Of a stretch of 64,000 bases of DNA, positions 8,219 through 45,135 are shown piece after piece. A program made the translations under genes and the position numbers. The notes beneath the pieces are model-generated. The model saw only the letters and a program-made list of their open reading frames with translations. It was not told the origin of the DNA and did not search any database. The stretch lies in the NCBI GenBank assembly GCA_027008775.1, contig JALVDV010000001.1, positions 73,934 to 137,933 of the forward strand. The letters run 5' to 3'. How positions within the stretch are numbered: position 1 is the stretch's first letter; each line of letters starts with the position of its first letter. The stretch comes from Candidatus Moraniibacteriota bacterium. GTDB lineage: Bacteria > Patescibacteriota > Minisyncoccia > Moranbacterales > DUUL01.

Positions 8219-9159
8219 CGACGCAACTTTTCCCGGTAAGCCAAATACTCAATCATTTGCCGATTGGTCTTGGTCATATCGGACAGCAGGGCAAAGACCA
8301 AAAACTGTAAACCGACCAAGAAGAAAGCGATAGCTACCAAAAGATGATTGCGGTAGGGCGTAATTTGCAAGTTGGGTAAATAAAGATAAAGAAAAACAGC
8401 AAAAAACACTCCCGACAGAGATATCAAAACCAAACCGGGCAAACCGAAAAATTTCATCGGTCGCACATCTCTGATGGCCTTAATAATAATTTTAAAACTG
8501 TTATTAACAAAAGACCAAACACTTTTCACAATCCTTGATTGTCGGTCCTCAAAATATCTCACTCTGACCGGGATCCATTTTAGTTTCAATTTTTTTCCGA
8601 TGGCGTCAATAATCGTTTCCTGAGTGTAGGTAAAACCGGTCACCTGATTCAGGCGCAACAAGGCCTCTCGGCTGTGCGCTCGAAAACCGCAAGTCAAATC
8701 ATGAATTTCCACATTCAAAAAAGCTCCCACCACTTTGGCCGCCAATCTGTTCAAAAAACTTTTCAAAAAGGGAATGCCTTCCGCCGTTCCCCGATTAAAT
8801 CTGTCGCCAATGGTAATATCCGCCTCACCACTTAAAATAGGAGCAACCATTTCCGGAATCTGTCGGGAATCAAACTGACCATCGGCATCAATATTAACCA
8901 TTAAATCAGCCCCGTTATCTATAGCGCTTTCCACCGCCGTGTTGAAAACCGCTCCCAAACGACGGTTGGTGGAATGGGAAACAACAATATCGGCGCCGGC
9001 CTCCTTGGCCACTTCAGCCGTACTGTCTCGCGAACCATCATCAACCACCTGCACCAACACCTCGGAAATTCCGGCTATCTCCCGCGGAACACTTTTAACG
9101 GTCTTGGCGATATTCTTCGCTTCATTGTAAGCGGGAATATTTACTATCAATTTTTTCAT
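8185..9159 (-). CDS. GT2 polyprenol-phosphate glycosyltransferase (Dpm1/GtrB-like) with C-terminal TM helices
   Basis: Contains VNIPAYNEAKNI...VVDDGSRDST...NIDADGQ (GT2 DxD). The C-terminal hydrophobic segments are typical of the GtrB/DPM synthase family. Confidence 0.75.
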   Translation of the reverse strand: MKKLIVNIPAYNEAKNIAKTVKSVPREIAGISEVLVQVVDDGSRDSTAEVAKEAGADIVVSHSTNRRLGAVFNTAVESAIDNGADLMVNIDADGQFDSRQIPEMVAPILSGEADITIGDRFNRGTAEGIPFLKSFLNRLAAKVVGAFLNVEIHDLTCGFRAHSREALLRLNQVTGFTYTQETIIDAIGKKLKLKWIPVRVRYFEDRQSRIVKSVWSFVNNSFKIIIKAIRDVRPMKFFGLPGLVLISLSGVFFAVFLYLYLPNLQITPYRNHLLVAIAFFLVGLQFLVFALLSDMTKTNRQMIEYLAYREKLRRWRKARRRKMS

Positions 9160-9284: not shown

Positions 9285-10613
9285 TCAACGGCCAATTCCT
9301 TTATAAACCACTCCCGCCTTTTCAATATCATCCTTGTCCAAAGCGTTAACTCCGTCAACAATAACTTTAACCTTATACTCTTTCAACATTTCACCATCCA
9401 GGTCTTGAAATTCCCGATGATTGGTTACCAAAATAACCGCCTCCGCTTCTCGCAAAAGCTCAGTCAAGGAATTAACATCGGAACGCTTGGGAATATGCGG
9501 ATCAAAAGAAACTATTTCCGCCTTCTTTTTACGTAGCTCCGCCACAATATCATAGTAGGGCGATTCCCGATCGTCATCAACATTCGGTTTGTAGGCAATC
9601 CCCAGCAAACCAACCTTTGTTCCGTTCAAAGGCATTTTTAAATCATTCAATTTTTCTTGCAAAAGACTAACTGTATAAGCCGGCATAGAATTGTTAATCG
9701 CTCGGGATGTTCGTAAAAATTTGTGATCAAAACCGGCTCTCTTCGCGCGCTCAATCAAATAATAAGGATCAACCGGAATACAGTGCCCGCCAATACCGCG
9801 ACTGGGGTAGTGCGCCAAGAAAGCAAAAGGTTTGGTAGCCGCTCCGTCAATTACATCCTTAACATCAATTCCCAAGACATCAAAAGATTTGGCCAATTCA
9901 TTGACAAAAGCAATATTAATATCTCTGAAAGAATTTTCCACCACCTTGCAAGCCTCCGCCTCTCTAATGTGTTTCATCGGCTTAATTGGCGCGTCAATAA
10001 TCGTCTCGTAAAACCGCAACGCTTTCCGTAAACCCTCTTGGGTAAAGGCTCCCACCACTCGCGGAATGTTGGTCACGTTCCACTTGGGATCTCCGGGATT
10101 TATTCTCTCCGGACAATGAGCGATAAAAACATCTTTGCCAACTTCATGTCCCTTCGCCTCAAAAATTGGTTTGACAATTTCTTCACTGACTCCCGGATTA
10201 ACCGTAGATTCCAAAACAACCAAAGCGCCCGGTTTTAAATTCTCGGCCACACTCTCCGAAGCTTGCCGAACCGGACCAATATCCGGATTGTGAAATTCGT
10301 CCACCGGCGTCGGCACACAAATTAAAACAATATCACACTCTTTGATTCTGGCAGTGTCGGTAGTGGCCTCAATGGGGTTTTCTGGCAATTTTTTTTCCAA
10401 ATACTCATCCTCAATAGGGGATTGCCCGGAATTGATAATGTCCGCTTTTTCTTGGGTTCTTTCAAAACCCAGAACCCGAAACCCTTTTTCCCTGGCTCTA
10501 ACAGCCAAAGGCAAGCCGACATAACCCAGGCCGACCACTCCTACCGTTTCTCTTTCAAGTTTTTGACTTCTATCTTTTTCTTTTCTTTTTTCCGTCTTTG
10601 TTTTTTCAGACAT
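9285..10613 (-). CDS. Nucleotide-sugar dehydrogenase (UDP-glucose/GDP-mannose 6-dehydrogenase family)
   Basis: N-terminal Rossmann motif VGVVGLGYVGLPLAV. Contains the catalytic-region motif GGHCIPVDPYYL and a C-terminal UDPG_MGDP_dh domain. Confidence 0.8.
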   Translation of the reverse strand: MSEKTKTEKRKEKDRSQKLERETVGVVGLGYVGLPLAVRAREKGFRVLGFERTQEKADIINSGQSPIEDEYLEKKLPENPIEATTDTARIKECDIVLICVPTPVDEFHNPDIGPVRQASESVAENLKPGALVVLESTVNPGVSEEIVKPIFEAKGHEVGKDVFIAHCPERINPGDPKWNVTNIPRVVGAFTQEGLRKALRFYETIIDAPIKPMKHIREAEACKVVENSFRDINIAFVNELAKSFDVLGIDVKDVIDGAATKPFAFLAHYPSRGIGGHCIPVDPYYLIERAKRAGFDHKFLRTSRAINNSMPAYTVSLLQEKLNDLKMPLNGTKVGLLGIAYKPNVDDDRESPYYDIVAELRKKKAEIVSFDPHIPKRSDVNSLTELLREAEAVILVTNHREFQDLDGEMLKEYKVKVIVDGVNALDKDDIEKAGVVYKGIGR

Positions 10614-33219: not shown

Positions 33220-33471
33220 ACAACCCTCACCTCTTGACAATTTGCTTTTTTCTTTATACAATCACCAGATTGATAAAAGGCAAGAATACTTAAGTAAATT
33301 TCACTAAATTGACAAAACAAACAAAGGGGTTTATCATTTGAGTGTTCAACAACACAAAATACAAACGAACTACCTGTAAGTGTAGAAGCAGGTTGTTTTT
33401 ATTGTTGTTTCGATAAAACATATCTTAAATAACACCCCATCTAAATTTAGTTAAATCTATTTCAAATAATC

Positions 33472-34965
33472 ATGCCCCCGATTTTTGTTCAAGGAGAATC
33501 ATCTAAAAATTTCTGCCATCAAAAAAGCAACCCTCTCAATAATGGATTAGTTTTTAAGGGTAATAAATTCATTACCCATACTAATCTACATCCTAAATAC
33601 TCTGCTCTGGAAACTATACAAAATCACCAGAAATTGGTAATCATTGGTCTTTTGACTATTCTGTTACTTGGAATTATTGTAAATTGGCACCAAACAGTAC
33701 TAATAACTATTTCCGTTTTAACAATTCTATACTTTGCTGATTTATTATTCAATCTCTTTCTAACCGTTAAAACTCTTAGAAAAACACCTGAAATTGTTGT
33801 CAACAAACAAGAGATTTCGCTTCTCCAAGATAAAGATTTACCGATTTATACCATTTTCTGCCCCTTGTATAAAGAGTGGCAAGTATTACCCGACTTTATT
33901 AAATCCATTAGTAAAATAAATTGGCCAAAAAACAAATTAGATGTCCAGCTACTTCTGGAAGAAGACGATAAAAAAACAATTGCTGAAATAAAAAAAATGC
34001 GATTACCGAACCATTTTCGAGTTATCATCGTTCCACATAGTGAACCAAAAACCAAACCAAAGGCTTGTAATTACGGGCTACACCATGCGCAAGGCGAATA
34101 TGCCGTAATTTATGATGCTGAAGACAATCCTGATCCTAACCAGCTTAAAAAAGCTTTTATTGCTTTTCAAAAGACAAGAAAAAATAATGTGGTTTGCGTA
34201 CAAGCAAAATTAAATTTTTATAATTCACATCAAAATATTCTTACCAGATTTTTTACCATGGAATATTCTCTTTGGTTTGATTTAATTCTTCCTGGTCTGC
34301 AATCTATTAAAGCGCCCATTCCCCTGGGTGGAACATCTAATCACTTTCGCACCAAAGATCTAAAATATCTGCAAGGATGGGATCCTTTCAATGTTACTGA
34401 GGATTGTGATTTGGGAATAAGAATAGCTAAACTCGGTTTGCACACCGCCATTATAAACTCTACCACCCTGGAAGAAGCAAATAGTAAACTCGGCAACTGG
34501 TTCAGGCAACGCTCTCGTTGGATTAAAGGTTATATGCAAACCTATCTGGTACACATGCGACGACCCCACGAATTTATAACCGATTTTAAAAATCCAAACA
34601 TTTTATTCTTCCAGCTAACAGTTGGTGGTAAAATCTTGTCTCTTTTCATAAACCCCCTAATGTGGATAATGACTATATCATACTTTCTATTCAAAGATTC
34701 TCTGGGGCCAATCATTGAATCTTTCTATTTAACTCCTGTTTTCTACATGGCCATCTTTTCATTAATAATTGGTAACTTTTTTTATATCTACAATTATATG
34801 ATTGGATGCGCAAAGAGAGAACAATGGGATATAATAAAATATGCCTTCCTGGTACCATTCTATTGGTTGGCAATCAGTCTAGCCGCCTGGAAAGCTTTAT
34901 TTCAACTTGTAACCAAACCTCACTACTGGGAAAAAACAGTGCATGGATTACATCTAAAAAAATAG
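33472..34965 (+). CDS. Membrane GT2 processive beta-glycosyltransferase (cellulose/chitin/PNAG synthase-like, QxxRW)
   Basis: N- and C-terminal TM helices. GT2 core with DAEDNPD (DxD), and QRSRWIKG (QxxRW), the processive-synthase hallmark. Confidence 0.75.
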   Translation: MPPIFVQGESSKNFCHQKSNPLNNGLVFKGNKFITHTNLHPKYSALETIQNHQKLVIIGLLTILLLGIIVNWHQTVLITISVLTILYFADLLFNLFLTVKTLRKTPEIVVNKQEISLLQDKDLPIYTIFCPLYKEWQVLPDFIKSISKINWPKNKLDVQLLLEEDDKKTIAEIKKMRLPNHFRVIIVPHSEPKTKPKACNYGLHHAQGEYAVIYDAEDNPDPNQLKKAFIAFQKTRKNNVVCVQAKLNFYNSHQNILTRFFTMEYSLWFDLILPGLQSIKAPIPLGGTSNHFRTKDLKYLQGWDPFNVTEDCDLGIRIAKLGLHTAIINSTTLEEANSKLGNWFRQRSRWIKGYMQTYLVHMRRPHEFITDFKNPNILFFQLTVGGKILSLFINPLMWIMTISYFLFKDSLGPIIESFYLTPVFYMAIFSLIIGNFFYIYNYMIGCAKREQWDIIKYAFLVPFYWLAISLAAWKALFQLVTKPHYWEKTVHGLHLKK

Positions 34966-34971
34966 AATTTT

Positions 34972-36513
34972 ATGTCTGAGCAAAAAACAAAGATTTCATT
35001 ATCAAAAAGACAGATTGTTATTTTAGCTCTATTTTTTACTTTTTACCTCTCTATAGCCTATTACCTTGTCTTTGACTTACAGCTTGTTTTTAGAGATGCA
35101 GTTTCAAGGACGGAAAAAGCATTCTTGGTTTTCTTTGACAATTCAGCAAAAATTTCATCTATTGGGTTTATTTGGACACCTCTCCCAAGTATATTGCAAC
35201 TACCACTCGTTATATTTAAACCACTGGCTAAATATGGATTTAGCGGAAATATTATATCAGCACTGTTCGGCGCTTTAAGTTGTTTGTATATTTACAAATT
35301 CCTCAATAAATCACACTTAAATTTCTTTTCAAAAATAATTTTTTTGCTATTGTTTGGGCTAAATCCAATGATTATTCTGTACTCAGCAAATGGTATGTCT
35401 GAAATAATTTTTGTCTTTTTTATAATACTGGCCAGTTGGCACTTAATAAAGTGGAACAAAACAAAGAGAATGACCGAACTCATTTTACTAGGAATAATCT
35501 TATCCTTAGCTTTTTTCACCAGGTACGAAACGATTCCACTTGCCATCACAATCGGCTTCCTTGTAATCTTTTTGAACTACGGAAAAATTAAGACAAGATT
35601 TAATGAAATTCAAGGAAGTATTGTCCTATACTTTCTGCCAATATTATTTTCTGTTTTTTTATGGATAGTCGCCAACTGGTTAATCATGGGAGACCCCTTC
35701 TACTTTCTGCGTGGAGAATATTCTAATATTGAACAATCAAATTTTATAGGAGGGGAGCTGAAAAAATTAAAAGGCAATCTTGTCGATGCAATTTATTATG
35801 CAACAAAAATGATTGCCCATCTTTACCCGGTTTTCTTCGCAACACTAATATATGCTATTTACAAACAGTTTTCAAAAATATCATTAATAACTATTTCCAT
35901 AATATTCTTATCTTTAAGCATAATCCTATTTCATATATTAATGTTACTTAAAGGCGTTTCCTACGGCTGGTTAAGATTCTACATATACATAATTCCATTT
36001 TCGTTCATACTATTTAGTATCACAATAGAAAATGTAAGAAAAAAAATGCTGGTAGCAACACTCTTCATCACACTTTTTTTTATTTCAAACATATACTCAC
36101 TCAAATCTATTTCAGATAAAAATTATGGCAAAGAAGAATGCCATGTCATAGAAGCCATCAAAGGACACTTTGACGAAAATTATTCATACATCAAAGATAT
36201 GGAGGTTGTTGACTACATTAACAAAAACAATCTAACCAATAAAAAAATTATTGTCGATGACTTTACCGGCTTTGGAATTATTCTAAACTCATTGAACCCT
36301 AAAATATTTATTAACAATTCTGACAAGGAATTTAAGAATAGTTTAGAGAATCCAAGGCAATATGCTGATTACATTTTGGTAAGACGCCCCACAGGAATTG
36401 GAATTATTGATGCAATAAATAAAAAGTATCCGGATATGTTTACTAAAGGAGCCAGCTATCTTAGACTAAAAAAAGATTTTGGCATTTGGAGATTGTATGA
36501 AATTATCAAATAG
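34972..36513 (+). CDS. GT-C-fold membrane glycosyltransferase candidate (PMT/ArnT-like), paralog A
   Basis: 513 aa, ~11 TM helices. N-terminal region FDNSAKISSIGFIWTPLPSILQLPLV parallels DIGKRVVDGLQPGLAQLGSVWLPLPHILMTITIW in the next gene. Confidence 0.55.
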   Translation: MSEQKTKISLSKRQIVILALFFTFYLSIAYYLVFDLQLVFRDAVSRTEKAFLVFFDNSAKISSIGFIWTPLPSILQLPLVIFKPLAKYGFSGNIISALFGALSCLYIYKFLNKSHLNFFSKIIFLLLFGLNPMIILYSANGMSEIIFVFFIILASWHLIKWNKTKRMTELILLGIILSLAFFTRYETIPLAITIGFLVIFLNYGKIKTRFNEIQGSIVLYFLPILFSVFLWIVANWLIMGDPFYFLRGEYSNIEQSNFIGGELKKLKGNLVDAIYYATKMIAHLYPVFFATLIYAIYKQFSKISLITISIIFLSLSIILFHILMLLKGVSYGWLRFYIYIIPFSFILFSITIENVRKKMLVATLFITLFFISNIYSLKSISDKNYGKEECHVIEAIKGHFDENYSYIKDMEVVDYINKNNLTNKKIIVDDFTGFGIILNSLNPKIFINNSDKEFKNSLENPRQYADYILVRRPTGIGIIDAINKKYPDMFTKGASYLRLKKDFGIWRLYEIIK

Positions 36514-36659
36514 AATCCCAAAACTGTTCAAAATTACAAAAGCGATTAACAAAAATTTATTTTCATTCTAAGGCAAATACAAGATTTAAGACATTATCAT
36601 TGGTGCCTTAAATCCAAGTAAAATATTTTTCATATCCTGAAATCAGAAATAAACAAAAA

Positions 36660-38273
36660 ATGAATAACACCCCAAAAACTATAAAAAAAGAAAAAAATAT
36701 CGGCAAAAAATTTAACACCATGTTGCTTATTCTCTCCTGTGTTTTGTCTCTTGTTTTTTCTTTCTTCTATTATCAAAACAAGTTAAATATTTCTTACAAC
36801 GACGCTCGTTCGCATTTAGATATCGGCAAAAGGGTGGTTGACGGATTGCAGCCAGGACTTGCCCAGTTGGGAAGCGTTTGGCTACCACTACCACACATCT
36901 TGATGACTATCACCATTTGGAATGATTTTATGTGGCACAGTGGTCTAGCCGGAACAATATTTAGCATGCTTTCTTACGTCGGTATTGTTTTTTTTATTCT
37001 AAAATTTTTAAATCAACTAGATGTTGATATCTGGGGCAAAATGGCAGCCTTTGGTATTTTCGCTTTTAATCCCAACATTCTTTACCTACAATCAACTCCA
37101 ATGACCGAGTTATTACTGTTGCTTACCATGTTGGCCGGCGTTTACTATTTCCTCCTTTGGCTCAAAAACAACAGTAACATTCTCCTAATTAAGTCAGCTC
37201 TTTGGATTATGCTTTCCACTTTAATTAGATATGATGGTTGGTTTTTATTTATCTGGGCCACTCTAATCTTGACTGTTTACAGTTTTAGAAACAGGAATTG
37301 GAAAATAACTGAAGGAAGGATATTCCTATTTACCTCTGTTGCTGGATTCGGAATCCTGCTATGGTTCATTTGGAACTATATTATTTTTAATAATGCTTTA
37401 TACTTTATGTTTGGACCATACTCTGCTCATAGTCAACAAGAAACATTTGCCCAAGAAGGCCTTTTAAGCACCAAAGGAAACTTATTGCTCTCAATCAAAA
37501 CCTACCTTTATGCCGTCATTCTAAATTCTGGAAAATATGTATCTTTCCTGGGAATATTGGGGGCATTGCTTCTGGCTGTCAATGCCAGAAAAAAACCAAT
37601 CTCTCTCTACGTTTTTTTATTACTCTTAACACCAGTCATTTTTAATATTCTAGCTCTTTACCTTGGTCACTCCATATTATTTATCCCGGGTTTTAATGGT
37701 ATGAAAGACTGGTTCAACATTCGTTATGGAGTTATGGCCATACCCTCGTTAGCTATATTTGGCGGATTTTTATTGGGAAAAATAAATGAAAATTGGCTAA
37801 AATTAATTCTATTACTTTTACTTTTTTTCAACTTAACAGTTAATTTAACAAAGGAGCCGGTAACAGTTGCTGATGCCAAATTTGGCAAAAGCCAAAAAAA
37901 CATCGATGCTGTTGCTAAATGGTTGCATGAAAACACCAAAAACAATGATGGTTTGATTTTAATCTCCGCCGCTTCGCACGACTCAATTATATTTTCCTCC
38001 AATTTGCCAATGAGAAAGTTTATCCATGAAGGTGTCAATTTAATTTGGCCAAAAGCCACAAATAATCCGGAGAAGTGGGCTCGTTGGATAGTTTTAATGC
38101 CTGAAAAAGCGAGAAAATCCGACTTTCTCTGGCAAGCCATTAACAAAAAAGACAAGCTACGTCACTATCATCCGGTTGCTACTTTCCCCTCAATCACTAT
38201 TTTTCAATTAGACGACAGTTTTTTTAAAAAAATTAAGGATAAAACTAATCAAATATATCATGATAAGGAATAA
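36660..38273 (+). CDS. GT-C-fold membrane glycosyltransferase candidate, paralog B
   Basis: 537 aa, polytopic. The DARSHLDIGKRV (DxD-like loop 1) followed by the WLPLPH segment aligns with paralog A. Confidence 0.55.
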   Translation: MNNTPKTIKKEKNIGKKFNTMLLILSCVLSLVFSFFYYQNKLNISYNDARSHLDIGKRVVDGLQPGLAQLGSVWLPLPHILMTITIWNDFMWHSGLAGTIFSMLSYVGIVFFILKFLNQLDVDIWGKMAAFGIFAFNPNILYLQSTPMTELLLLLTMLAGVYYFLLWLKNNSNILLIKSALWIMLSTLIRYDGWFLFIWATLILTVYSFRNRNWKITEGRIFLFTSVAGFGILLWFIWNYIIFNNALYFMFGPYSAHSQQETFAQEGLLSTKGNLLLSIKTYLYAVILNSGKYVSFLGILGALLLAVNARKKPISLYVFLLLLTPVIFNILALYLGHSILFIPGFNGMKDWFNIRYGVMAIPSLAIFGGFLLGKINENWLKLILLLLLFFNLTVNLTKEPVTVADAKFGKSQKNIDAVAKWLHENTKNNDGLILISAASHDSIIFSSNLPMRKFIHEGVNLIWPKATNNPEKWARWIVLMPEKARKSDFLWQAINKKDKLRHYHPVATFPSITIFQLDDSFFKKIKDKTNQIYHDKE

Positions 38274-39585
38274 AGTTATTATTTTTTCCATTCTCCTGAG
38301 CACAGGCTTGCTTTCTATTTACAAATTTCACTTCCAATCTGCCAATAAATCCGGAAATATTAACAAACAGTCAGCAAAAAATATAACTTGCCCCGCGCCA
38401 AGTCAACAGACATTTTGGAAAATACAATCAATTGATACTATGAAACAGTCCCGAGATTTGGCCCGAGCAAAAAAAAATGACAAGAGCTTTGAAAGAGAAA
38501 TTGACCAACAGGTATCCGCTATCTCTTCAACAGGCGCTACGCACATTACTATTGATACTCCGTATGATCCAGAATTTATCCCTTTTTTAAAGAAGTGGAT
38601 CGCCAGCGCCAGAAAATATAATCTAAAAATCTGGTTCAAAGGAAATTGGTCTGGCTGGGAAGGGTGGTTTAATTACCCCAAAAATCTCAGCCGTCGCCAA
38701 CATCAGCAAAAAACAATTGCCTTCATTCTCCAATACCCGGAGTTTTTTGAAGACGGAGACATTTTTTCTCCTTGTCCCGAGTGTGAAAATGGAGGACCGG
38801 GAGATCCGCGTCAAAATAAAAATGCTGTAAGCCATCAACAATTTATTATTAAAGAATTTGAGGCCTGTAATAAATCTTTCAAAAAAATTAACAAAAAAGT
38901 TTTGGTTCTTTTTCCGATGAATAACGATGTCGCCAAAATGATAATGGATAAAAAAACGACTGCGGCACTGGGAGGATATGTCACCACTGATCACTATAGT
39001 AAGAGCCACCAGCAACTAATTGAAGACCTAAGACAATTGGCCATAAATTCTGGTGGAAAAATAGTGCTGGGAGAGTTCGGTTTACCCATTCCCGACATCC
39101 ACGGCCAAATCTCTCCGAAAAAACAAGCTGAATGGATCAAGGCTTTACTGAAAGACCTGTCCATTCATAAGAAAATAATTGGGGTTAATTACTGGGTTAA
39201 CAAGGGGGGAAGTACAGCCATTTGGCAAAACAATAATGAAGCAAAACCGGCAGTAAACATATTAAGAAAAGCCTTTAAACCCCAAGTTTTTTACGGACGA
39301 ATAGTTGATGAATTTAATCAAAGCATTAAGAGTGCCGAGATCAAAAGTCAGAATTACTCAACCGGTACAAACCAGCAGGGTTGTTTTTTCTTGTTGGTAT
39401 GGCCTCAAGAAAAATCATTGTTCACCATCAAAGCTGATAATTTCAACGATAAAAATATTACTTTAAACAATCAGTCAAAGTCATATCAAAAAATAGTCCT
39501 TTCCCAAAAGGACGTCAACAAATACTATCACATCAAACTGGAACTGTATAAAAAATTTGGTTTAAATTTACAAAAACACAAATAA
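38260..39585 (+). CDS. Secreted hypothetical protein, possible glycoside-hydrolase-like (TIM barrel) enzyme
   Basis: N-terminal signal/TM and a W/Y-rich region (WFKGNWSGWEGWFNYPK, GVNYWVNKGG). The assignment is only tentative. Confidence 0.4.
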   Translation: MIRNKVIIFSILLSTGLLSIYKFHFQSANKSGNINKQSAKNITCPAPSQQTFWKIQSIDTMKQSRDLARAKKNDKSFEREIDQQVSAISSTGATHITIDTPYDPEFIPFLKKWIASARKYNLKIWFKGNWSGWEGWFNYPKNLSRRQHQQKTIAFILQYPEFFEDGDIFSPCPECENGGPGDPRQNKNAVSHQQFIIKEFEACNKSFKKINKKVLVLFPMNNDVAKMIMDKKTTAALGGYVTTDHYSKSHQQLIEDLRQLAINSGGKIVLGEFGLPIPDIHGQISPKKQAEWIKALLKDLSIHKKIIGVNYWVNKGGSTAIWQNNNEAKPAVNILRKAFKPQVFYGRIVDEFNQSIKSAEIKSQNYSTGTNQQGCFFLLVWPQEKSLFTIKADNFNDKNITLNNQSKSYQKIVLSQKDVNKYYHIKLELYKKFGLNLQKHK

Positions 39586-39738
39586 AATCCCCGTAACAAC
39601 AAAACAAAGAGATATGAAATAAACAGAGGCTTGACACATAATTAAAAGAGTTATACAATGGCCGGACGGCAAATGAATAAAATAAGATAACCAGATGCAA
39701 ACTAACTAGATGCGGTTTTTGTAAACAGAGAAAGAAGT

Positions 39739-41109
39739 ATGAAAGAGACTCTACACAATATCAACAAGAAGATAACTGAGAGAGCTGTTATTTATTTTAT
39801 AACAATGTCCGTTTTCATTATTTTAATTGGTAAAGCTTTCTTTGTAAAACCTGATTATTTCACTTTATATATTTACGGAGTTTTAGTAACACTCGTTCTT
39901 TTAATTAACTTTTACTACGCCATATTTAAATACGAGGACCCGGCCATAACAGCTAAAAAAATTATTCGCCAAAAACCAACTTCTCAGAAAAAACCACTGG
40001 TTAGTTGTATGGTAGCGGTTTATAATGAGGAGAAGATTATTGAAGACTGTATTCTTTCCTTGGCAAATCAGACATATCAAAACAAAGAAATTATTTTTGT
40101 TAATGATGGTAGCACGGATAAGACCGCCGAAATCCTTGATTATTATGCAAATAAAGGTCTCATTAAAGTCATTCACCAAAAAAACGCCGGCAAAAAAAGA
40201 GCTTTGGGACGAGCAATGAGAGAAGCCAAAGGAGAAATTTTCGCTTTCTCCGACAGTGATTCGGTTTGGGCACCGGACGCCATTGAAAAAATCGTTCCTA
40301 TCTTCATGGCATTTCCTGATATTGGAGGAGTAAGTGGTCATTTTCGCCTAAAAAATTCAGCAACCAACATTCTCACTCGCGCTCAGGATGCCTGGGCGGA
40401 AGGGCAGTTTTCTATTAGAAAAGCATTTGAGAGTTATTTTGGAGCAGTCACTTGCGTTTCCGGACCTTTGGCTGTTTTCCGTAAATCAGCCATTTACAAC
40501 TACATACCCGCCTGGGAACAAGATACTTTTTTAGGTCAAGAATTTAAATTTGCCACCGATCGAACATTGACCGGCTTTTTGCTTGGCAACAAATACATCG
40601 GCGAAAAATTAAAACAAAAATATCACAATGATGATTGTGTAAAAAAAATAGACTATCCCATCAAAGATTGGAAGGTTGTTTATTCAAAATCAGCCAAAGC
40701 TTGGACGGTCCTACCGGATAACTTTAAATCTTTGCTAAAACAACACATTCGCTGGAAAAAATCTTTTATACGCAATACTTTCTTCACCGGTTCTTTTTAT
40801 TGGCATAAGCCATTTTTGGCCGCTCTTGCTTATTATCTTCACGTAGTATTTGTTTTAGTGGGACCTTTTATTGCTTTCAGGCATATAATCTATCTACCAA
40901 TAAGAGGGGACATATGGGGGGCAATTTTGTATATTTTGGGAATTATTTTTATAGGATTTATGTTTGGCTTGGCGTATAAAATTGAAAACAAGGAAGACCA
41001 CATTTGGATTTACAGACCAATTATGAGTATCCTAAGTACTTTAATCCTTTCTTGGTTAATTTTCTACTCTGCTTTAACGATTAAAAAGATGGTATGGCAC
41101 AGAAACTGA
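39739..41109 (+). CDS. Membrane GT2 processive N-acetylglucosaminyl/hexosyl transferase (NodC/IcaA/HasA-like, QxxRW)
   Basis: MVAVYNEE...VNDGSTDKT...SDSDS (DxD)...QHIRWKKS (QxxRW), with N- and C-terminal TM helices. Confidence 0.75.
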   Translation: MKETLHNINKKITERAVIYFITMSVFIILIGKAFFVKPDYFTLYIYGVLVTLVLLINFYYAIFKYEDPAITAKKIIRQKPTSQKKPLVSCMVAVYNEEKIIEDCILSLANQTYQNKEIIFVNDGSTDKTAEILDYYANKGLIKVIHQKNAGKKRALGRAMREAKGEIFAFSDSDSVWAPDAIEKIVPIFMAFPDIGGVSGHFRLKNSATNILTRAQDAWAEGQFSIRKAFESYFGAVTCVSGPLAVFRKSAIYNYIPAWEQDTFLGQEFKFATDRTLTGFLLGNKYIGEKLKQKYHNDDCVKKIDYPIKDWKVVYSKSAKAWTVLPDNFKSLLKQHIRWKKSFIRNTFFTGSFYWHKPFLAALAYYLHVVFVLVGPFIAFRHIIYLPIRGDIWGAILYILGIIFIGFMFGLAYKIENKEDHIWIYRPIMSILSTLILSWLIFYSALTIKKMVWHRN

Positions 41110-42761
41110 CAAAAAAATTCAGACAAACATTTTTGGAATACCTTATTCTAACTACTATAGTGATAATTTTTATTGTTTTGTTTGACAAATATATATTATC
41201 AACCCTGCAACAAAATCAAAATGAAAAACACCAGCACATTAAGACAATTGGTAATGAAATCACAACAATAAAACATTCTCCTCTTAACTTTAGCCAAAGA
41301 GCCCACCACAATAAAAATGAGAAAAACCTTCAAAAAAAATACTATGCTAAACTGCAGAAAAACGGTGAAAAGTGGAGCTTAGTCGGTGCCCCTAAGACAT
41401 TTCATCTCAGCTTTTCCTCTGACAACAAATTACAAATAAAAGGATACGCTCCATTTATTGTTAAGATTAAAGATTTTACTCAAGAATATTATTCTATTGA
41501 TAAAACAGTTACATTGGATATCCCGAAAGATGCAAGTTCATTTATGGTTTACGAGCAAGAAGATGCATTACCAATCTTTGGTTATCATTATGTTGTCAGT
41601 GATAAAGACCAAATCAACAAACCCTCTTTAGAAATCCATCTGTCTGAATTTGACAAACAAATTAATTATCTAACCAACAAACTCGGCTGTCGATGGTTTA
41701 CTTTCGCTGATATCATGGAAAATTATGTCATAAAAAATAAAAAAATACCACAAAGAGCATGTGTTCTGAATTTTGATGATGGCAGAAAAGATAGTTATTT
41801 CTATATATTTCCAATACTAAAAAAATATAAAGCTGTAGGCACATTCTATATAATTACTCACTTGCTAGGTAAGCCAGCCTATATGACTTGGGAACAAGTT
41901 GATCAACTTTATTTAGATGGCAATGAGATAGGATCACACACACTTTTTGGTGGAAGTTTAGTACACCATCAACACTGGTTTGAGGAAAAATTAGGAAAAA
42001 AATTTACACACAACGAATTGGAAAAACAAATTATCGGTCCCAAAGAAGAATTAGAAAGTAGAGGATATTCTGTTAAAACATTCGCCTACCCACTAGGAGA
42101 GTGGAATCAAGAAATAGAAAACATAGTAAAGAAAAACTACATAGCTGCCAGAGATATTGAACGCCCTAGCAAAACTCTCTGCCCAAAAACTCCAACACTT
42201 TCTTTTGATGATTCTTTTATTTGGCATATGCACTACCATCACATTGAAAATGAAAATTTTACAACAATTAAACAAGGAATGGCCTATAATCATTGGTGGC
42301 AATTTGAGGATGGCTACAAAATTATATCGAGTAATCAAAACAGTGTTAGACAACTGAATAGTTTATACGATTTAACCAGTACAACTTATCATATTGTTGA
42401 TTTACGCGCCAAAAATGACCAGATTATAAACAAATTTATAATACCTAGAAAAGGTTCTTACCAAATTGAAATATTTGGTTCAACTGGAGAGCTGGGAAAA
42501 TCCAAATACTATTTCCTCAAGAATATCAAAATATTCATAGACAACAAACAAATGCGTATTTTCGCCGGAAATAGTAAACAATGCAAAAAAAATCACAACA
42601 CTTATTATTGCAGTTATTTTATAAAGAATGTAGAATTGGAACCGGGAGTTCATACTATCAGCGTAAAAAATATTGGCAAAAAGTTTCTTCGCTTGGACAA
42701 ATTTAGGATATTTAGGAAATTTAAAACAAAAAAAAGTTATGAAATTGAAATTATTAGCTAG
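41094..42761 (+). CDS. Polysaccharide deacetylase (CE4/NodB homology domain) with N-terminal TM and extra C-terminal domain
   Basis: CVLNFDDGRKDSY...GTFYIITHLLG...MTWEQVDQLYLDGNEIGSHT carries the NodB motifs 1-3 (TFDDG, H...H, Rpp). Confidence 0.7.
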   Translation: MAQKLTKKFRQTFLEYLILTTIVIIFIVLFDKYILSTLQQNQNEKHQHIKTIGNEITTIKHSPLNFSQRAHHNKNEKNLQKKYYAKLQKNGEKWSLVGAPKTFHLSFSSDNKLQIKGYAPFIVKIKDFTQEYYSIDKTVTLDIPKDASSFMVYEQEDALPIFGYHYVVSDKDQINKPSLEIHLSEFDKQINYLTNKLGCRWFTFADIMENYVIKNKKIPQRACVLNFDDGRKDSYFYIFPILKKYKAVGTFYIITHLLGKPAYMTWEQVDQLYLDGNEIGSHTLFGGSLVHHQHWFEEKLGKKFTHNELEKQIIGPKEELESRGYSVKTFAYPLGEWNQEIENIVKKNYIAARDIERPSKTLCPKTPTLSFDDSFIWHMHYHHIENENFTTIKQGMAYNHWWQFEDGYKIISSNQNSVRQLNSLYDLTSTTYHIVDLRAKNDQIINKFIIPRKGSYQIEIFGSTGELGKSKYYFLKNIKIFIDNKQMRIFAGNSKQCKKNHNTYYCSYFIKNVELEPGVHTISVKNIGKKFLRLDKFRIFRKFKTKKSYEIEIIS

Positions 42762-43674
42762 TTTAGTAATTATTTTCATCGCTCTAATGTTGACCAAAGA
42801 TAATCTGAAATCTTGTTTCAGAAGTAAATTTTCCAAACAAATAGGACAGGGAACAACAAAAATAACACTCCTCGAGAAACCCAAAAACAACGATCGGCAA
42901 CAAAACAATACTCACCAAAAAACAAAAGGAGCAGGAAGTTTTGTTGAGACTTTTTCAAAAGATTTTATTTTGGAGGAAACCGGCTCTATACTCGAAAGTC
43001 AAAATGACAATTGGTGGGTTAATTCGGGAGCTTTTCTGTATTCCGAGCATGGTATCGGTCGGACAATATTCGGCGCGTTGGATAAAAATAATAAATGGCG
43101 TCTTGATTATAAAAATTATAATGCTGATGAGACAGACAATGGATACCACCCTCAAAATATTTTTCGACTAATCACCAAAAGCAAATGGAAAAATTTCACT
43201 CAGTCAGCTTATTTTAGAATGAAAAAATATCATCTCAGTTCCAGCAAACATCGCTTTGAATCAAATGGAATTCTGTTGTTCAATCGATATCTGGACGGTA
43301 ATAACCTTTACTATACCGGACTGAGAGTAGATGGAGCAGCTGTTATCAAAAAAAAGTACAAAGGGAAATATTATTTAATGGGCTATAAAAAAATATTAAA
43401 GGGAAAATACGACAGACAAAAAAATCCCAATCTAATCCCGACAAATCAATGGATTGGTATTAAAAGCAAGGTAGCAACAATTTCCAATAATAAGACTGAA
43501 ATAAAATTAGCTATTGACATCAAAGGAAACGGAAATTGGCAAGAAATTTTAAGAGTTATTGATGACGGTAAAAAATTTGGCGGTCCAACTATTTCTCAGA
43601 ATGGCCATGCCGGCATCAGGACTGATTTTATGGATGTTCAGTTTGACAATTATAAAATAGAAGAAAGGAGGTGA
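42739..43674 (+). CDS. Secreted LamG/DUF1080-like (concanavalin-type jelly-roll) protein
   Basis: Signal peptide MKLKLLASLVIIFIALM. The C-terminal GHAGIRTDFMDVQFDNYKI resembles the DUF1080 terminal strand motif. Start at internal ATG 42739. Confidence 0.4.
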   Translation: MKLKLLASLVIIFIALMLTKDNLKSCFRSKFSKQIGQGTTKITLLEKPKNNDRQQNNTHQKTKGAGSFVETFSKDFILEETGSILESQNDNWWVNSGAFLYSEHGIGRTIFGALDKNNKWRLDYKNYNADETDNGYHPQNIFRLITKSKWKNFTQSAYFRMKKYHLSSSKHRFESNGILLFNRYLDGNNLYYTGLRVDGAAVIKKKYKGKYYLMGYKKILKGKYDRQKNPNLIPTNQWIGIKSKVATISNNKTEIKLAIDIKGNGNWQEILRVIDDGKKFGGPTISQNGHAGIRTDFMDVQFDNYKIEERR

Positions 43675-43737
43675 AACAAGTATAATAAACAAGAGTTCTT
43701 TTGGGGTTTTTAAAAAAAATTTAAAGGAGGGAGAGCA

Positions 43738-43959
43738 GTGAAAGTTAACGTAGAAAGAAACGGTAGTCAACTGGTTAAAAAGATTTCAGACTGTGAGTTG
43801 GGAGATGTGGTTAATTATTCGGCAGAGAATTGCATTATTATCGAGAAACGTAAAAATATTACGCAATTGGTCTCTGCGGATTTCTCCAGAAAATTCGTAG
43901 TAGCTAACCACATCGCCTTGCCGGTCGCCCAAAAAGCCCAGATGACTATTCAATTCTAA
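43738..43959 (+). CDS. Small hypothetical protein (73 aa, GTG start)
   Basis: RBS AAAGGAGGGAGAGCAGTG; followed by a strong terminator. Confidence 0.35.
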   Translation: MKVNVERNGSQLVKKISDCELGDVVNYSAENCIIIEKRKNITQLVSADFSRKFVVANHIALPVAQKAQMTIQF

Positions 43960-43996
43960 TTAATCTAAATTTCAATCTAAGTTTCAATTTTAACTC

Positions 43997-44033
43997 AAAC
44001 ATGCTGATAAAATTTATCAGCATGTTTTTTGTG
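43997..44033 (+). terminator. Rho-independent terminator ending the glycan operon
   Basis: AACATGCTGA-TAAAATTTA-TCAGCATGTT hairpin followed by TTTTTTG. Confidence 0.7.
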
Positions 44034-44402
44034 TAAACTTATAATAGGATGAGCGATGAATAAAAAACTAAAGTTTCAATCCGGCATCTAATATGTCAGT
44101 CCGAATATTAATAAATTGGTAAAACTTAAGAAATCAGGAAAGTAAGATATGAAATGGTATGGTAGGGAAGCAGGGTAAAGATATAAAAAATCACAATAAA
44201 ATCAACTGCAAAAAGAATTATCGGTTTATTACTAATAAATTTATTTGATCAATCATTTATACAAATACAGACAACGGATTTAGACATCTATTCTTACCGG
44301 TGATTGAAACTTGATAATTCAGACAAAAGAGAGGAAAAGAGGGGAATGGTTAAGATTCAAACTTAAAAATCAAAATCGCAAAATATTACAAGATAAAAAT
44401 AT

Positions 44403-44434
44403 GGAAATAAAAATAAAAATAAAAATAAAAAATT
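44403..44434. repeat. (AAAAAT)n microsatellite
   Basis: AAATAAAAATAAAAATAAAAATAAAAAATT read directly from the sequence. Confidence 0.8.
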
Positions 44435-45084
44435 AAAACAAAACTAAAATTGAAATAGATACAACGTCGCACAATATATCTTTTGCGACATTATATATTG
44501 CCACTTGATAATTAGCAACAAATGCTAAAGCCTGAAACAACAAAACATAATGAACGAACTTGAAGAACAAAGCAAGATAAGCAATTCTCTCTGTTTATAG
44601 CCATAAATTAAACAATTAATTTGATTTCAAATTCAAAAAATTTACAAACTCTTGCTATTCATAATATTATATTTATTTTCATTCAGAATATCATCCATAA
44701 ATTCATTCTTATTTAGCTTTTCAGGTATTTTCCGGCCAAAAGGTACCCTTCCTAACGAAAGCAAATTTTTTTATTCAATTTACAAGATAAGCCCCGGTAC
44801 CTACCTACCTTTAACTTTTTTCAATTCGCTTCTAAAAAGCGAGAATTCATCAAACCTCCACCAAACAAGAGAAATTTAGCCAAATTTTGTCAAAAATTTC
44901 TAACACAAACAAAATTTTTAGCCGGTCCCACTTATTAACAATTTCAAACAATCTAATTTGTCATTCCAAATTTTCTGAAAAATTTTTTCAATTCAAGTGT
45001 CCTATTAATGAACATTTTGCCAAGTGACTTAAAAACAGAAGCATTCACAAAGACGATAAATAAAATAAAAAATCCGAGAAAACT

Positions 45085-45135
45085 TCTTAAAAAAATAAAA
45101 ACAAAAAAATTAGCAGTCAACTACCTCAACTGCTA
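45085..45135 (-). terminator. Rho-independent terminator of the peptidase gene
   Basis: TTAGCAG-N13-CTGCTAA hairpin, followed on the minus strand by TTTTTTTGTTTTTATTTTTTTAAG. Confidence 0.55.

What the first reader, a model, noticed from the sequence alone, without database searches (positions are those of the whole stretch)
33472..43959. Exopolysaccharide/glycoconjugate operon with two QxxRW processive GT2 synthases, a CE4 deacetylase, two paralogous GT-C enzymes, a GH-like protein and a LamG-like protein
The 39739 GT2 (QHIRW) followed directly by a NodB/CE4 deacetylase reproduces the NodC-NodB / IcaA-IcaB / PgaC-PgaB logic. This predicts a partially de-N-acetylated beta-linked GlcNAc-type polymer. 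A second QxxRW synthase (33472, QRSRW) plus two GT-C paralogs suggests a further polymer or lipid- or protein-linked glycan. The secreted GH-like and jelly-roll proteins could trim or bind the product. For a small-genome organism this is a large investment in surface glycans and may relate to host attachment.
Basis: partly seen in the sequence, partly recalled or inferred. Interest (0 to 1): 0.55.

Follow-up and report, generated by a model that had tools for sequence, protein, structure and literature searches.

The report
Two surface-glycan gene modules in a CPR bacterium
The genes are real, but they form two separately conserved surface-sugar gene sets, and the synthase-plus-deacetylase set, found widely in ultra-small bacteria and archaea, looks more like a hyaluronan- or chitin-type system, possibly making an acidic polymer, than like the PNAG system first proposed.

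Summary
All seven proteins exist at the stated coordinates, in a Moraniibacteriota-like (CPR) metagenome contig.

The "operon" is two conserved modules, each with its own promoter-like site.

**Module A (33472-39585):**
- a BcsA-type GT2 (TED, QRSRW)
- two paralogous GT-C enzymes
- a membrane-anchored clan GH-A-fold glycosidase

**Module B (39739-43959):**
- a GT2 synthase with NodC/HAS/chitin-synthase motifs (TDRTLT, QHIRWKKSFIRN)
- a PgaB/IcaB-type CE4 deacetylase that keeps four of five canonical catalytic residues
- a ConA-like jelly-roll protein

**Context in relatives:**
- In 53 of 53 related metagenome loci with enough flank, a CE4 gene or a heparinase-III-like gene directly follows the synthase. 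The latter was confirmed fused to CE4 in part of the cases.
- In 31 of 53, a UDP-HexNAc-type 6-dehydrogenase precedes it.
- This window has a 53%-identical dehydrogenase 29 kb away.

**Reading:**
- The synthase-deacetylase logic is supported.
- PNAG specifically is not favoured. A HexNAc polymer, possibly containing uronic acid and partly N-deacetylated, is the better reading.
- The jelly-roll is fused elsewhere to GH5, GH6, GH10, CE4 and PL12-like modules, so it behaves like an undescribed carbohydrate-binding module.

No product chemistry was tested here.

The parts
33234..33337 (+). Two promoter-like sites (TTGACA-17-TACAAT and TTGACA-17-TATCAT) in the 253-bp gap upstream of GT2a.
   Evidence: 11 of 12 matches each. 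These are consensus matches only, not shown to function.
33472..34965 (+). GT2a: BcsA/cellulose-synthase-like membrane GT2 of 497 aa. It has 2 N-terminal and 3-4 C-terminal TM helices, plus DAED, TED and QRSRW motifs.
   Evidence: Pfam PF13641/PF13632. NCBIfam best hits are CelA 58.6 bits and PgaC 47.7 bits, far below cutoffs. Motifs and TM helices. It is 80.6% identical to the L031 orthologue. It is 45% identical to a Geobacillus plasmid GT flanked by BcsB-like and GT39 genes.
34972..36513 (+). GT-Ca: polytopic GT-C-type glycosyltransferase of 513 aa, with a conserved Asp (FRDAVSR) in the first external loop.
   Evidence: PMT_2 31.5 bits against 26.1. LA_3751/3752 family 57 bits. 68% identical orthologue in L031. 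Alignment.
36660..38273 (+). GT-Cb: divergent paralogue of GT-Ca, 537 aa. It overlaps the next gene by 14 nt.
   Evidence: 25% identity, E = 3e-16 to GT-Ca. LA_3751 family 29 bits. Orthologues sit directly upstream of the GH-A-like gene in L029, L030 and L031. The loop motif YNDARSH is conserved.
38260..39585 (+). Membrane-anchored clan GH-A-fold glycosidase-like protein with a C-terminal CarboxypepD_reg-like domain, 441 aa.
39631..39659 (+). Promoter-like site (TTGACA-17-TACAAT) in the 153-bp gap before GT2b.
   Evidence: 11 of 12 matches. Consensus match only.
39739..41109 (+). GT2b: NodC/HAS/chitin-synthase-type membrane synthase of 456 aa, with 2 N-terminal and about 4 C-terminal TM helices.
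   Evidence: Pfam Glycos_transf_2 121 bits and Chitin_synth_2 54 bits. NCBIfam PgaC_IcaA 142 and NodC 131 bits, both below cutoffs. The best PDB profile hits are hyaluronan synthases, E = 4e-27. Motif alignment and tree. The family is 60-80% identical across CPR and DPANN-labelled proteins.
41094..42761 (+). CE4 polysaccharide deacetylase of PgaB/IcaB type, 555 aa. It has an N-terminal TM anchor, a CE4 core at about 155-400, and a conserved C-terminal domain at about 400-555.
   Evidence: PF01522 66.9 bits. PDB hits are IcaB 4wcj, 6dq3, and PgaB 4u10/3vus. H164, D228, D229 and H283 align to PgaB H55, D114, D115 and H184 and are invariant. The PgaB H189 position is Gly.
42739..43674 (+). Membrane-anchored ConA-like jelly-roll protein of 311 aa, probably an undescribed carbohydrate-binding module.
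43738..43959 (+). Small 73-aa ORF with an AGGAGG-like ribosome-binding site. No homologue was found in any related locus.
   Evidence: It may or may not be a gene.
43997..44027 (+). Terminator-like hairpin (14-bp stem followed by a T run) that ends module B.
9285..10613 (-). Outside the finding: a UDP-HexNAc-type nucleotide-sugar 6-dehydrogenase. It is the likely counterpart of the dehydrogenase that sits directly upstream of GT2b in relatives.
   Evidence: 53% identical to the L005 GT2b-adjacent enzyme. PDB hits: Cap5O 255 bits, UDP-ManNAcA DH 241, NDP-GalNAcA DH 217, against UDP-Glc DH 118. NCBIfam.
8185..9159 (-). Outside the finding: an AglJ/PpgS-like GT2, a polyprenyl-phosphate-sugar synthase type. 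It is a candidate supplier of lipid-linked donors for the GT-C enzymes.
   Evidence: NCBIfam AglJ 125.8 bits and PpgS 93.2 bits, below cutoffs. The link to the GT-C enzymes is inference only.

Best explanation
The stretch holds two neighbouring surface-glycan modules of a Moraniibacteriota-like CPR bacterium.

**Module B (39739-43959)**
- It is a synthase-dependent system. GT2b is a membrane-embedded synthase of the NodC / hyaluronan-synthase / chitin-synthase kind.
- GT2b would polymerise UDP-HexNAc and export the chain through its own C-terminal TM helices. It may also use a UDP-HexNAc-uronic acid made by the dehydrogenase at 9285-10613.
- Outside the membrane, the anchored PgaB/IcaB-type CE4 removes some N-acetyl groups.
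- The anchored jelly-roll protein binds the chain.
- In many relatives a heparinase-III-like (PL12-like) lyase domain fused in front of the CE4 would also cut the chain. This genome's window lacks that domain.

**Module A (33472-39585)**
- It pairs a BcsA-type synthase (GT2a) with two GT-C enzymes, which would use polyprenyl-phosphate-sugar donors on the outer face.
- It also has a membrane-anchored clan GH-A-fold glycosidase, tightly coupled to GT-Cb.
- Together these would make or remodel a second glycan.

**Shown:** gene content, motifs, folds, conservation, neighbourhoods and fusions.

**Inferred:** sugar identities, linkage, the presence of uronic acid, enzyme activity and cellular role.
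For: **Module structure**
- GT2a/GT-Ca/GT-Cb/GH-like recur together in L031 at 80/68/48/56% identity, with an extra GtrB/DPMS-like GT2 inserted.
- The GT-Cb + GH-like pair recurs in L029 and L030.
- GT2b-CE4-jelly-roll recur in L003, L004, L023, L025 and L028 without module A.
- Promoter-like sites precede each module, and a terminator follows module B.

**GT2b**
- Invariant residues are D123, D172-S-D174, T273-D274-R275 and Q335..R338-W339.
- It shares an insertion and the DRxLT and RWxKS motifs with NodC and HAS. The NJ tree places PgaC outside that group.
- HAS are the best PDB hits.
- NodC is the best annotated plasmid hit after a Paenibacillus GT2 that is flanked by two CE4 genes and a GH18.

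**Neighbourhood of 80 metagenome loci**
- The dehydrogenase lies directly upstream in 31 of 53 loci.
- Downstream, a heparinase-like gene follows in 26 of 53 and CE4 alone in 27 of 53; none has neither. CE4 was detected behind the heparinase-like part in 6 of the 14 such loci with enough flank.
- No other gene is conserved around the synthase.
- The closest relatives of this window's GT2b and CE4 (L043 at 79%, L046) have the dehydrogenase upstream.

**Accessory enzymes**
- The dehydrogenase is of the UDP-HexNAc type.
- The heparinase-like domain keeps residues that align with heparinase III N240, Y294 and H424.
- The CE4 keeps the catalytic His and Asp and two of the three metal ligands, all invariant in 16 orthologues.
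- The jelly-roll is fused to CE4 in some relatives and to GH5, GH6, GH10 and PL12-like modules elsewhere.
- The GH-A-like protein, the CE4 and the jelly-roll each have one N-terminal TM anchor.
Against: - No chemistry was tested.
- Profile score is slightly higher for E. coli PgaC (155 bits) than for NodC (134) or HAS (96-99). Tree support for the NodC/HAS grouping is only 64%.
- In this window the dehydrogenase is 29 kb away and sits in another glycosyltransferase cluster. No heparinase-like domain exists in the 64 kb. The uronic-acid inference therefore rests on relatives.
- 22 of 53 relatives also lack an adjacent dehydrogenase.
- GH18/CBM5_12 neighbours in L023 and in Paenibacillus fit a neutral chitin-like product.
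- The CE4 lacks the second metal-binding His, so it may be atypical or inactive.
- The roles of the heparinase III residues are recalled from memory, not checked in a paper here.
- The promoter and terminator calls are consensus matches only.
Confidence: 0.5

Rival explanations
1. Neutral chitin/chitosan-like system. GT2b makes beta-1,4-GlcNAc chains or oligomers only, the CE4 converts part of them to GlcN, and the jelly-roll binds beta-1,4 chains. The dehydrogenase seen in relatives would serve another step.
For: - NodC/CHS-type motifs and Pfam Chitin_synth_1/2 hits.
- GH18/CBM5_12 next to the module in L023 and in the Paenibacillus cluster.
- The jelly-roll domain is fused to beta-1,4-glycanases GH5, GH6 and GH10.
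- This window has no adjacent dehydrogenase or lyase domain.
Against: - A UDP-HexNAc-type dehydrogenase lies directly upstream on the same strand in 31 of 53 relatives, including the closest ones.
- A PL12-like domain with conserved catalytic positions is present in about half of relatives. Lyases of that family need a uronic acid.
Confidence: 0.28
2. GT2b is a PgaC/IcaA equivalent that makes beta-1,6-GlcNAc, which the CE4 partly de-N-acetylates.
For: - The highest NCBIfam and profile scores go to PgaC_IcaA (142 bits; 155 bits).
- The CE4 is of the PgaB/IcaB type with the N-terminal catalytic His.
Against: - The score is far below the equivalog cutoff of 422 bits.
- The TED motif is replaced by TDRTLT, with the NodC/HAS insertion.
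- The motif after QxxRW is of HAS/NodC type.
- No PgaD/IcaD-like small membrane partner was seen. The only small ORF, 43738-43959, has no TM helix.
- The dehydrogenase and lyase context in relatives has no counterpart in pga or ica operons.
Confidence: 0.12
3. One integrated pathway. All seven proteins build a single glycoconjugate. For example, the GT2b polymer could be decorated or anchored by the GT-C enzymes and trimmed by the GH-A-like protein.
For: - All genes lie on the same strand with short gaps.
- GT-C genes recur next to GT2b in a few other genomes: L023 has a PMT_2 gene between GT2b and CE4, L048 has GT2a-GT-C-DH-GT2b, and L070 has a GT-C upstream.
Against: - Most relatives carry module B without module A, and module A without module B.
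- Separate promoter-like sites precede each module.
Confidence: 0.15

Closest known systems
Class I hyaluronan synthase systems (streptococcal hasABC; Chlorella virus HAS with its UDP-sugar dehydrogenase)
   Same: - A single membrane GT2 synthase with the CxSGP, FLG...DDRxLT and QxxRWxKS motifs.
- HAS are the best hits among solved structures.
- In relatives, a nucleotide-sugar 6-dehydrogenase is encoded directly beside the synthase.
   Different: - Scores are modest (96-99 bits).
- The catalytic motif is TDR, not DDR, and there is a family-specific insertion of about 25 aa before QxxRW.
- The dehydrogenase is of the UDP-HexNAc (Cap5O/WecC/TviB-like) type, not a UDP-glucose dehydrogenase.
- HAS operons have no deacetylase, lyase domain or jelly-roll partner.
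- In this window the dehydrogenase is not adjacent.
NodC-NodB (chitooligosaccharide synthase plus deacetylase)
   Same: - A GT2 with the same motif set, encoded next to a CE4 deacetylase.
- NodC is the best annotated plasmid hit, at 28% identity over 73% of the protein.
   Different: - 131 bits against the 550-bit cutoff.
- The CE4 is of PgaB/IcaB type, not NodB type (NodB 19 bits).
- There is no NodA.
- The CE4 and the jelly-roll are membrane-anchored extracytoplasmic proteins, whereas NodB is cytoplasmic.
PgaABCD / IcaADBC (PNAG)
   Same: - The synthase-then-deacetylase logic.
- The CE4 has the permuted motif order with the N-terminal His.
- The fusion of a chain-cleaving domain with CE4 in relatives parallels PgaB (CE4 + GH153).
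   Different: - The synthase motifs differ.
- No PgaD/IcaD-like or PgaA-like gene was seen.
- The second metal-binding His is missing.
- In relatives the cleaving domain is a PL12-like lyase, not a hydrolase.
Bcs / clostridial Ccs cellulose systems (synthase plus GH8 or GH5 glucanase), compared with module A
   Same: - GT2a has the D, DxD, TED and QxxRW signature.
- A homologue in Geobacillus sits beside a BcsB-like gene.
- A GH-A-fold glycosidase is encoded in the same module.
   Different: - CelA scores 58.6 bits against the 699-bit cutoff.
- There is no PilZ domain or BcsB in the window.
- Two GT-C enzymes are present, which bcs operons lack.
- The glycosidase is coupled to GT-Cb rather than to the synthase in other genomes.
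GtrB/CsbB/PpgS-type polyprenyl-phosphate-sugar synthase plus GT-C transferase pairs (for example CsbB-YfhO, PpgS-Rv3779)
   Same: - GT-C enzymes with a conserved Asp in the first external loop.
- L031 carries a GtrB/DPMS-like GT2 between the two GT-C genes.
- The window has an AglJ/PpgS-like GT2 at 8185-9159.
   Different: - In this window the candidate donor synthase is 25 kb away.
- The acceptor and the sugar are unknown.

Membership tests
Membrane-embedded processive GT2 synthases (BcsA/CHS/HAS/NodC/PgaC superfamily) | A GT-A domain with a UDP-binding Asp, DxD, a catalytic-base Asp and QxxRW, flanked by TM helices. | tested here: met
   GT2a has EEDD, DAED, TED, QRSRW and 2+3-4 TM helices. 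GT2b has NDGSTD, DSD, TDR, QHIRW and 2+~4 TM helices.
PgaC/IcaA PNAG synthase (TIGR03937) | Score above the equivalog cutoff (422.3 bits). | tested here: not met
   GT2b scores 142.4 bits and GT2a 47.7 bits.
PgaC/IcaA PNAG synthase (TIGR03937) | A TED catalytic motif, and a small membrane partner (PgaD/IcaD). | tested here: not met
   GT2b has TDRTLT with the NodC/HAS-type insertion. No small TM protein is encoded in the module.
NodC chitooligosaccharide synthase (TIGR04242) | Score above the cutoff (550 bits). | tested here: not met
   130.9 bits.
NodC/HAS/chitin-synthase clade | Shared motifs: CxSGP, an insertion with FLG, (E/D)DRxLT, and QxxRWx(K/R)SxxR. | tested here: met
   Alignment. The first acidic residue of the ED/DD pair is Thr in this family. 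NJ grouping has 64% bootstrap.
Class I hyaluronan synthase | Alternating use of UDP-GlcNAc and UDP-GlcA. | not testable with these tools
   Only context is available. A dehydrogenase is adjacent in 31 of 53 relatives, but it is of the UDP-HexNAc type.
CE4 polysaccharide deacetylase (PF01522) | Domain score above the cutoff. | tested here: met
   66.9 bits against 23.1.
CE4 polysaccharide deacetylase (PF01522) | Catalytic base Asp, catalytic acid His, and the Asp-His-His metal triad. | tested here: inconclusive
   H164, D228, D229 and H283 are present and invariant. The position of PgaB H189 is Gly here, and G or S in the 16-member subgroup. H378 is invariant and is a possible substitute, but this was not tested.
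PgaB / IcaB (TIGR03938, TIGR03933) | Score above the equivalog cutoffs (321.9 and 248.35 bits). | tested here: not met
   44.3 and 44.7 bits. The motif order and the best PDB hits are nevertheless of this type.
GT-C glycosyltransferases (PMT_2 / GT39-like) | A polytopic membrane protein that matches a GT-C family model and has a conserved acidic residue in the first external loop. | tested here: met
   GT-Ca matches PMT_2 at 31.5 against 26.1 bits. GT-Cb qualifies only through paralogy (E = 3e-16) and the LA_3751 family (29 bits). The Asp is conserved in both groups.
Clan GH-A glycoside hydrolases (GH5/GH113-like) | A (beta/alpha)8 barrel with Glu after strand 4 and Glu at the end of strand 7. 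| tested here: met
Any CAZy GH sequence family | A sequence-level match to a GH family model or structure. | tested here: not met
   There is no Pfam or NCBIfam hit. The catalytic part has no PDB sequence hit. dbCAN was not available.
Laminin-G / ConA-like lectin fold | A jelly-roll beta-sandwich fold. | tested here: met

The most novel reading that the evidence does not exclude
CPR bacteria and DPANN archaea share a small gene cassette that appears to have moved between them: a UDP-HexNAc 6-dehydrogenase, a HAS/NodC-type synthase, a PL12-like lyase fused to a CE4 deacetylase, and a new CBM. This cassette would make a glycosaminoglycan-like surface polymer of HexNAc and HexNAc-uronic acid. Partial N-deacetylation would leave it carrying both charges. 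It would be a prokaryotic analogue of hyaluronan or heparan with its own trimming enzyme, used by these ultra-small episymbionts as a coat or for attachment to hosts.
Probability: 0.3. Interest if true: 0.8.

Novelty: new variant of a known kind. Interest (0 to 1): 0.58.

Why it matters
CPR bacteria and DPANN archaea make up a large share of microbial diversity, and most are thought to live attached to other cells. Their surface chemistry is almost unknown.

Module B is short, highly conserved (60-80% identity for the synthase) and widespread in both groups. That makes it a concrete, clonable candidate for a major surface polymer.

If the product is an acidic, partly deacetylated aminosugar polymer, that would extend glycosaminoglycan-like chemistry to these lineages. 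It would also yield three uncharacterised protein families to test: the jelly-roll module, the GH-A-like glycosidase and the His-deficient CE4.

If the product turns out to be ordinary chitin/chitosan or PNAG, the finding is a routine exopolysaccharide locus.

Tried and rejected
- **Single operon.** Rejected in favour of two modules, on synteny and on the promoter and terminator scan.
- **"GT2b is closest to hyaluronan synthase overall."** Rejected. The same profile scores PgaC at 155 bits and NodC at 134, against 96-99 for HAS. Only the motif, indel and tree evidence favours the NodC/HAS side.
- **CE4 as a clearly inactive pseudo-enzyme.** Not adopted, because four catalytic residues are invariant across 16 orthologues.
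- **Heparinase-like, GH18 or second CE4 genes in the window.** None found.
- **PDB sequence searches.** They gave nothing for GT-Ca and only the C-terminal domain for the GH-like family.
- **Rfam on the 1.2-kb gap after the module.** Only noise.
- **Literature.** Seven full-text searches found no paper describing this module. One paper on heparosan N-deacetylases was checked and is not relevant.
- **Not done.** One fold search was left unused.

Full report
**Source and gene content**

The window is part of a 152-kb ENA metagenome contig. Its closest genome relatives are MAGs labelled Candidatus Moraniibacteriota/Moranbacteria, which are CPR/Patescibacteria.

Between 33472 and 43959 the + strand carries seven large ORFs and one small one. 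They match the gene calls of the source record.
- **Two GT2 proteins with QxxRW.** GT2a has QRSRW at aa 346-350 and GT2b has QHIRW at aa 335-339.
- **A CE4 protein.** PF01522 scores 66.9 bits.
- **Two polytopic membrane proteins** that are 25% identical, E = 3e-16. The first passes the GT-C model PMT_2.
- **Two proteins without any Pfam or NCBIfam match**.

**The two unannotated proteins**

I built alignments from database homologues and predicted structures for both.

The protein at 38260-39585:
- It belongs to a family of about 1959 hits, almost all CPR.
- It folds with pLDDT 89.5 into a (beta/alpha)8 barrel followed by a small beta domain.
- The invariant residues are E176 in the loop after strand 4, H245-Y246, E272 at the end of strand 7, and W312. 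I read these as matching the GH5-type active-site pattern. That reading comes from the secondary-structure string, not from a superposition.
- The catalytic part has no sequence-level match to any PDB chain.

The protein at 42739-43674:
- Its family has more than 1286 hits.
- It folds with pLDDT 87.5 into a membrane-anchored jelly roll.

So "GH-like" and "LamG-like jelly roll" both hold at the level of fold.

**One operon or two modules?**

Synteny says two.
- In locus L031, GT2a, GT-Ca, GT-Cb and the GH-A-like gene recur in the same order at 80.6, 68, 48 and 56% identity. An extra GtrB/DPMS-type GT2 sits between the GT-C genes, and no GT2b, CE4 or jelly-roll is present.
- In L029 and L030 the GT-Cb + GH-A-like pair recurs behind other glycosyltransferases.
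- Conversely, GT2b-CE4-jelly-roll recur without module A in L003, L004, L023, L025 and L028.
- In the window, 11-of-12 promoter-like sites lie before GT2a (33234, 33309) and before GT2b (39631). A 14-bp hairpin with a T run follows the small ORF at 43997-44027. These are consensus matches only.
- The modules are not wholly unrelated. L048 has GT2a-GT-C-dehydrogenase-GT2b, L070 has a GT-C upstream, and L023 has a PMT_2 gene between GT2b and CE4.

**Module B: the synthase**

GT2b belongs to a very conserved family, 60-80% identical among the best 120 database proteins. Some of these are labelled by NCBI as Woesearchaeota and Nanoarchaeota. A Nitrososphaerales MAG homologue is 38% identical.

All signature residues are invariant: D123, D172-S-D174, T273-D274-R275, Q335, R338 and W339.

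Which characterised enzymes is it closest to? The answer depends on the measure.
- NCBIfam gives PgaC_IcaA 142 bits and NodC 131 bits. Both are far below their cutoffs.
- A family profile gives E. coli PgaC 155 bits and R. johnstonii NodC 134 bits. Hyaluronan synthases score 96-99 bits and are the best solved structures. Chitin synthase reaches E = 2e-7, and BcsA is not found at that threshold.
- The PgaC similarity lies in the N-terminal nucleotide-binding half, and that alignment breaks before the catalytic-base motif.
- In a joint alignment, GT2b, the archaeal homologue, a Paenibacillus GT2, NodC and two HAS share three features. They are a 7-residue insertion containing FLG, the (D/E/T)DRx(L/M)T motif, and RWx(K/R)Sxx(R). 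PgaC, BcsA and GT2a instead have TED and RWA(Q/R)G or RWxKGY.
- A neighbour-joining tree groups GT2b with NodC+HAS at 64% bootstrap and puts PgaC outside at 79%.

I therefore assign GT2b to the NodC/HAS/chitin-synthase side, with moderate confidence.

**Module B: genomic context across relatives**

A scan of JGI metagenomes returned 80 loci with orthologues at 53-79% identity.
- Among the 53 loci with at least 1.4 kb upstream, 31 have a nucleotide-sugar dehydrogenase directly upstream on the same strand.
- Among the 53 loci with at least 2.2 kb downstream, 26 have a heparinase II/III-like gene next and 27 have a stand-alone CE4. None has neither.
- A CE4 was detected behind the heparinase-like part in 6 of the 14 such loci that had at least 5.6 kb downstream.
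- A jelly-roll gene follows in 13 of the 28 loci with enough flank.
- Clustering all ORFs of 81 loci found no other conserved neighbour.

The dehydrogenase:
- The window's own copy (9285-10613, minus strand) is 53% identical to the GT2b-adjacent one in L005.
- It matches Cap5O (255 bits), an archaeal UDP-ManNAcA dehydrogenase (241) and an NDP-GalNAcA dehydrogenase (217). UDP-glucose dehydrogenases score much lower, about 118. NCBIfam agrees.

The heparinase-like domain:
- The L028 domain aligns with Pedobacter heparinase III at E = 3e-19.
- It keeps the residues that align with N240, Y294 and H424 of that enzyme. The catalytic roles of those residues are from my memory of the literature, not from a paper read here.
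- Lyases of this kind act by beta-elimination at a 4-linked uronic acid.

The closest relatives of this window's GT2b (L043, 79%) and CE4 (L046 and L043, 53-55%) have the dehydrogenase upstream. Other close ones (L028, L035, L037) have the lyase-CE4 fusion. The window's synthase therefore sits among both context types.

This is why I favour a HexNAc polymer that also contains a uronic acid, probably an N-acetylhexosaminuronic acid.

The caveat is real. In this window the dehydrogenase is 29 kb away, next to an AglJ/PpgS-like GT2 and a GT4. No heparinase-like sequence exists in the 64 kb.

A neutral chitin-like product remains a serious rival. It is supported by GH18/CBM5_12 genes beside the module in L023 and beside the Paenibacillus homologue.

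**Module B: the deacetylase**

The best PDB sequence hits are IcaB (4wcj), a streptococcal deacetylase (6dq3) and PgaB (4u10, 3vus).

Aligned with E. coli PgaB:
- H164 matches H55.
- D228 and D229 match D114 and D115.
- H283 matches H184.
- The PgaB H189 position is Gly here, in the sequence HTLFGG.

In 16 orthologues of this CE4 subgroup the first four residues are invariant, and the fifth position is never His. The subgroup has its own invariant W377-H378, Y381 and WWQFE at 400-404. A second CE4 subgroup in relatives (L003, L025) keeps both His residues.

The enzyme is probably active but atypical.

**Module B: the jelly-roll**
- It is encoded right after the CE4, with a 23-nt overlap.
- In L045, L046, L075 and L112 it is fused to the CE4 in one reading frame. 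In L042, L044 and L108 it lies at the end of heparinase-like proteins.
- A full HMMER scan of 1.84 billion representatives found only 645 family members at E <= 1e-3.
- Long members carry GH5, GH6, GH10+PA14, CE4+PKD, heparinase-like+CE4 or BACON domains.

A domain that is appended to many unrelated carbohydrate-active catalytic modules behaves like a carbohydrate-binding module. I therefore prefer binding over catalysis.

**Module A**

GT2a:
- It has two N-terminal and three to four C-terminal TM helices, with DAED, TED and QRSRW motifs.
- It is 43-45% identical to glycosyltransferases of Geobacillus and Frigoribacterium plasmids. In Geobacillus the gene lies between a BcsB-like gene and a GT39 (GT-C) gene.
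- GT2a is thus a cellulose-synthase-like enzyme whose pairing with a GT-C also occurs outside the CPR. Its product is unknown.

The GT-C enzymes:
- Both paralogue groups keep an Asp in the first external loop (FRDAVSR and YNDARSH).
- The GtrB/DPMS-like gene in L031 and the AglJ/PpgS-like GT2 in this window fit a polyprenyl-phosphate-sugar donor. This is inference.

The GH-A-like protein is linked most tightly to GT-Cb. The two genes overlap by 14 nt and are adjacent in three other genomes.

**Topology**

The GH-A-like protein, the CE4 and the jelly-roll each have a single N-terminal hydrophobic segment. This fits extracytoplasmic, membrane-anchored proteins that act on exported glycans.

**Literature and novelty**

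Seven full-text searches found no description of this module in CPR or DPANN organisms. The library covers only open-access papers, so an earlier description cannot be excluded.

The logic of a synthase with modifying and cleaving enzymes is well known from PNAG, Pel, alginate, cellulose and hyaluronan systems. The particular combination here appears to be a new variant:
- a NodC/HAS-type synthase
- a UDP-HexNAc-type dehydrogenase
- a PL12-like-CE4 fusion in relatives
- a new CBM-like domain
- a wide CPR/DPANN distribution

**Verdict**

- About 0.8: two modules exist, and module B is a synthase-deacetylase-binding system for a HexNAc-based exported polymer.
- About 0.45: this organism's polymer contains uronic acid.
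- 0.5: the explanation as a whole.

Noticed in passing
window 43960-45204: About 1.2 kb of AT-rich sequence with no ORF longer than 75 aa and no Rfam match above noise. It lies between the module B terminator hairpin and the convergent C39-like gene.
   Followed up: partly
window 45205-46563 (-): A protein with an N-terminal TM segment, a coiled coil of about 250 aa, and a C-terminal Peptidase_C39_2 domain. This is an unusual architecture and its role is unknown.
   Followed up: no
window 1497-10613 (-): A second glycan gene cluster: two GT4 genes, an AglJ/PpgS-like polyprenyl-phosphate-sugar synthase (8185-9159) and the UDP-HexNAc-type dehydrogenase (9285-10613). A GalU gene lies at 14212-15159.
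   Followed up: partly
window 22033-26611 (+): A HlyD-type membrane-fusion protein and an AcrB-type RND transporter pair, in a CPR genome.
   Followed up: no
proteins P0364, P0391, P0402, P0429, P0491, P0465: In other organisms the jelly-roll domain of 42739-43674 is fused to GH5, GH6, GH10+PA14 or BACON domains. The family is small and sharply bounded, with 645 representatives among 1.84 billion proteins.
   Followed up: partly
L025/L050 (7001-8344 and neighbours); L006 9935-11356: GT2b orthologues at 62-64% identity occur on contigs whose proteins NCBI labels Woesearchaeota or Nanoarchaeota. There they are flanked by two CE4 genes and the jelly-roll gene. A Nitrososphaerales MAG has a 38% identical homologue without these neighbours. 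This suggests transfer between bacteria and archaea. The taxonomic labels were not verified here.
   Followed up: partly
L023 12574-15386; L035 563-2842: A second, larger GT2 of about 775 aa with faint chitin-synthase hits, followed by a GH18/CBM5_12 gene, lies beside module B in some CPR genomes.
   Followed up: no
L032 (Paenibacillus cellulositrophicus plasmid, 2553-10183): The best cultured-organism homologue of GT2b (31% identity) sits in a CE4-GT2-CE4-GH18 cluster. That cluster could serve as an experimentally tractable model.
   Followed up: no
window 41094-42761, aa 377-404: This CE4 subgroup lacks the second metal-binding His. Its invariant residues are W377-H378, Y381 and WWQFE at 400-404, downstream of the CE4 core.
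   Followed up: partly
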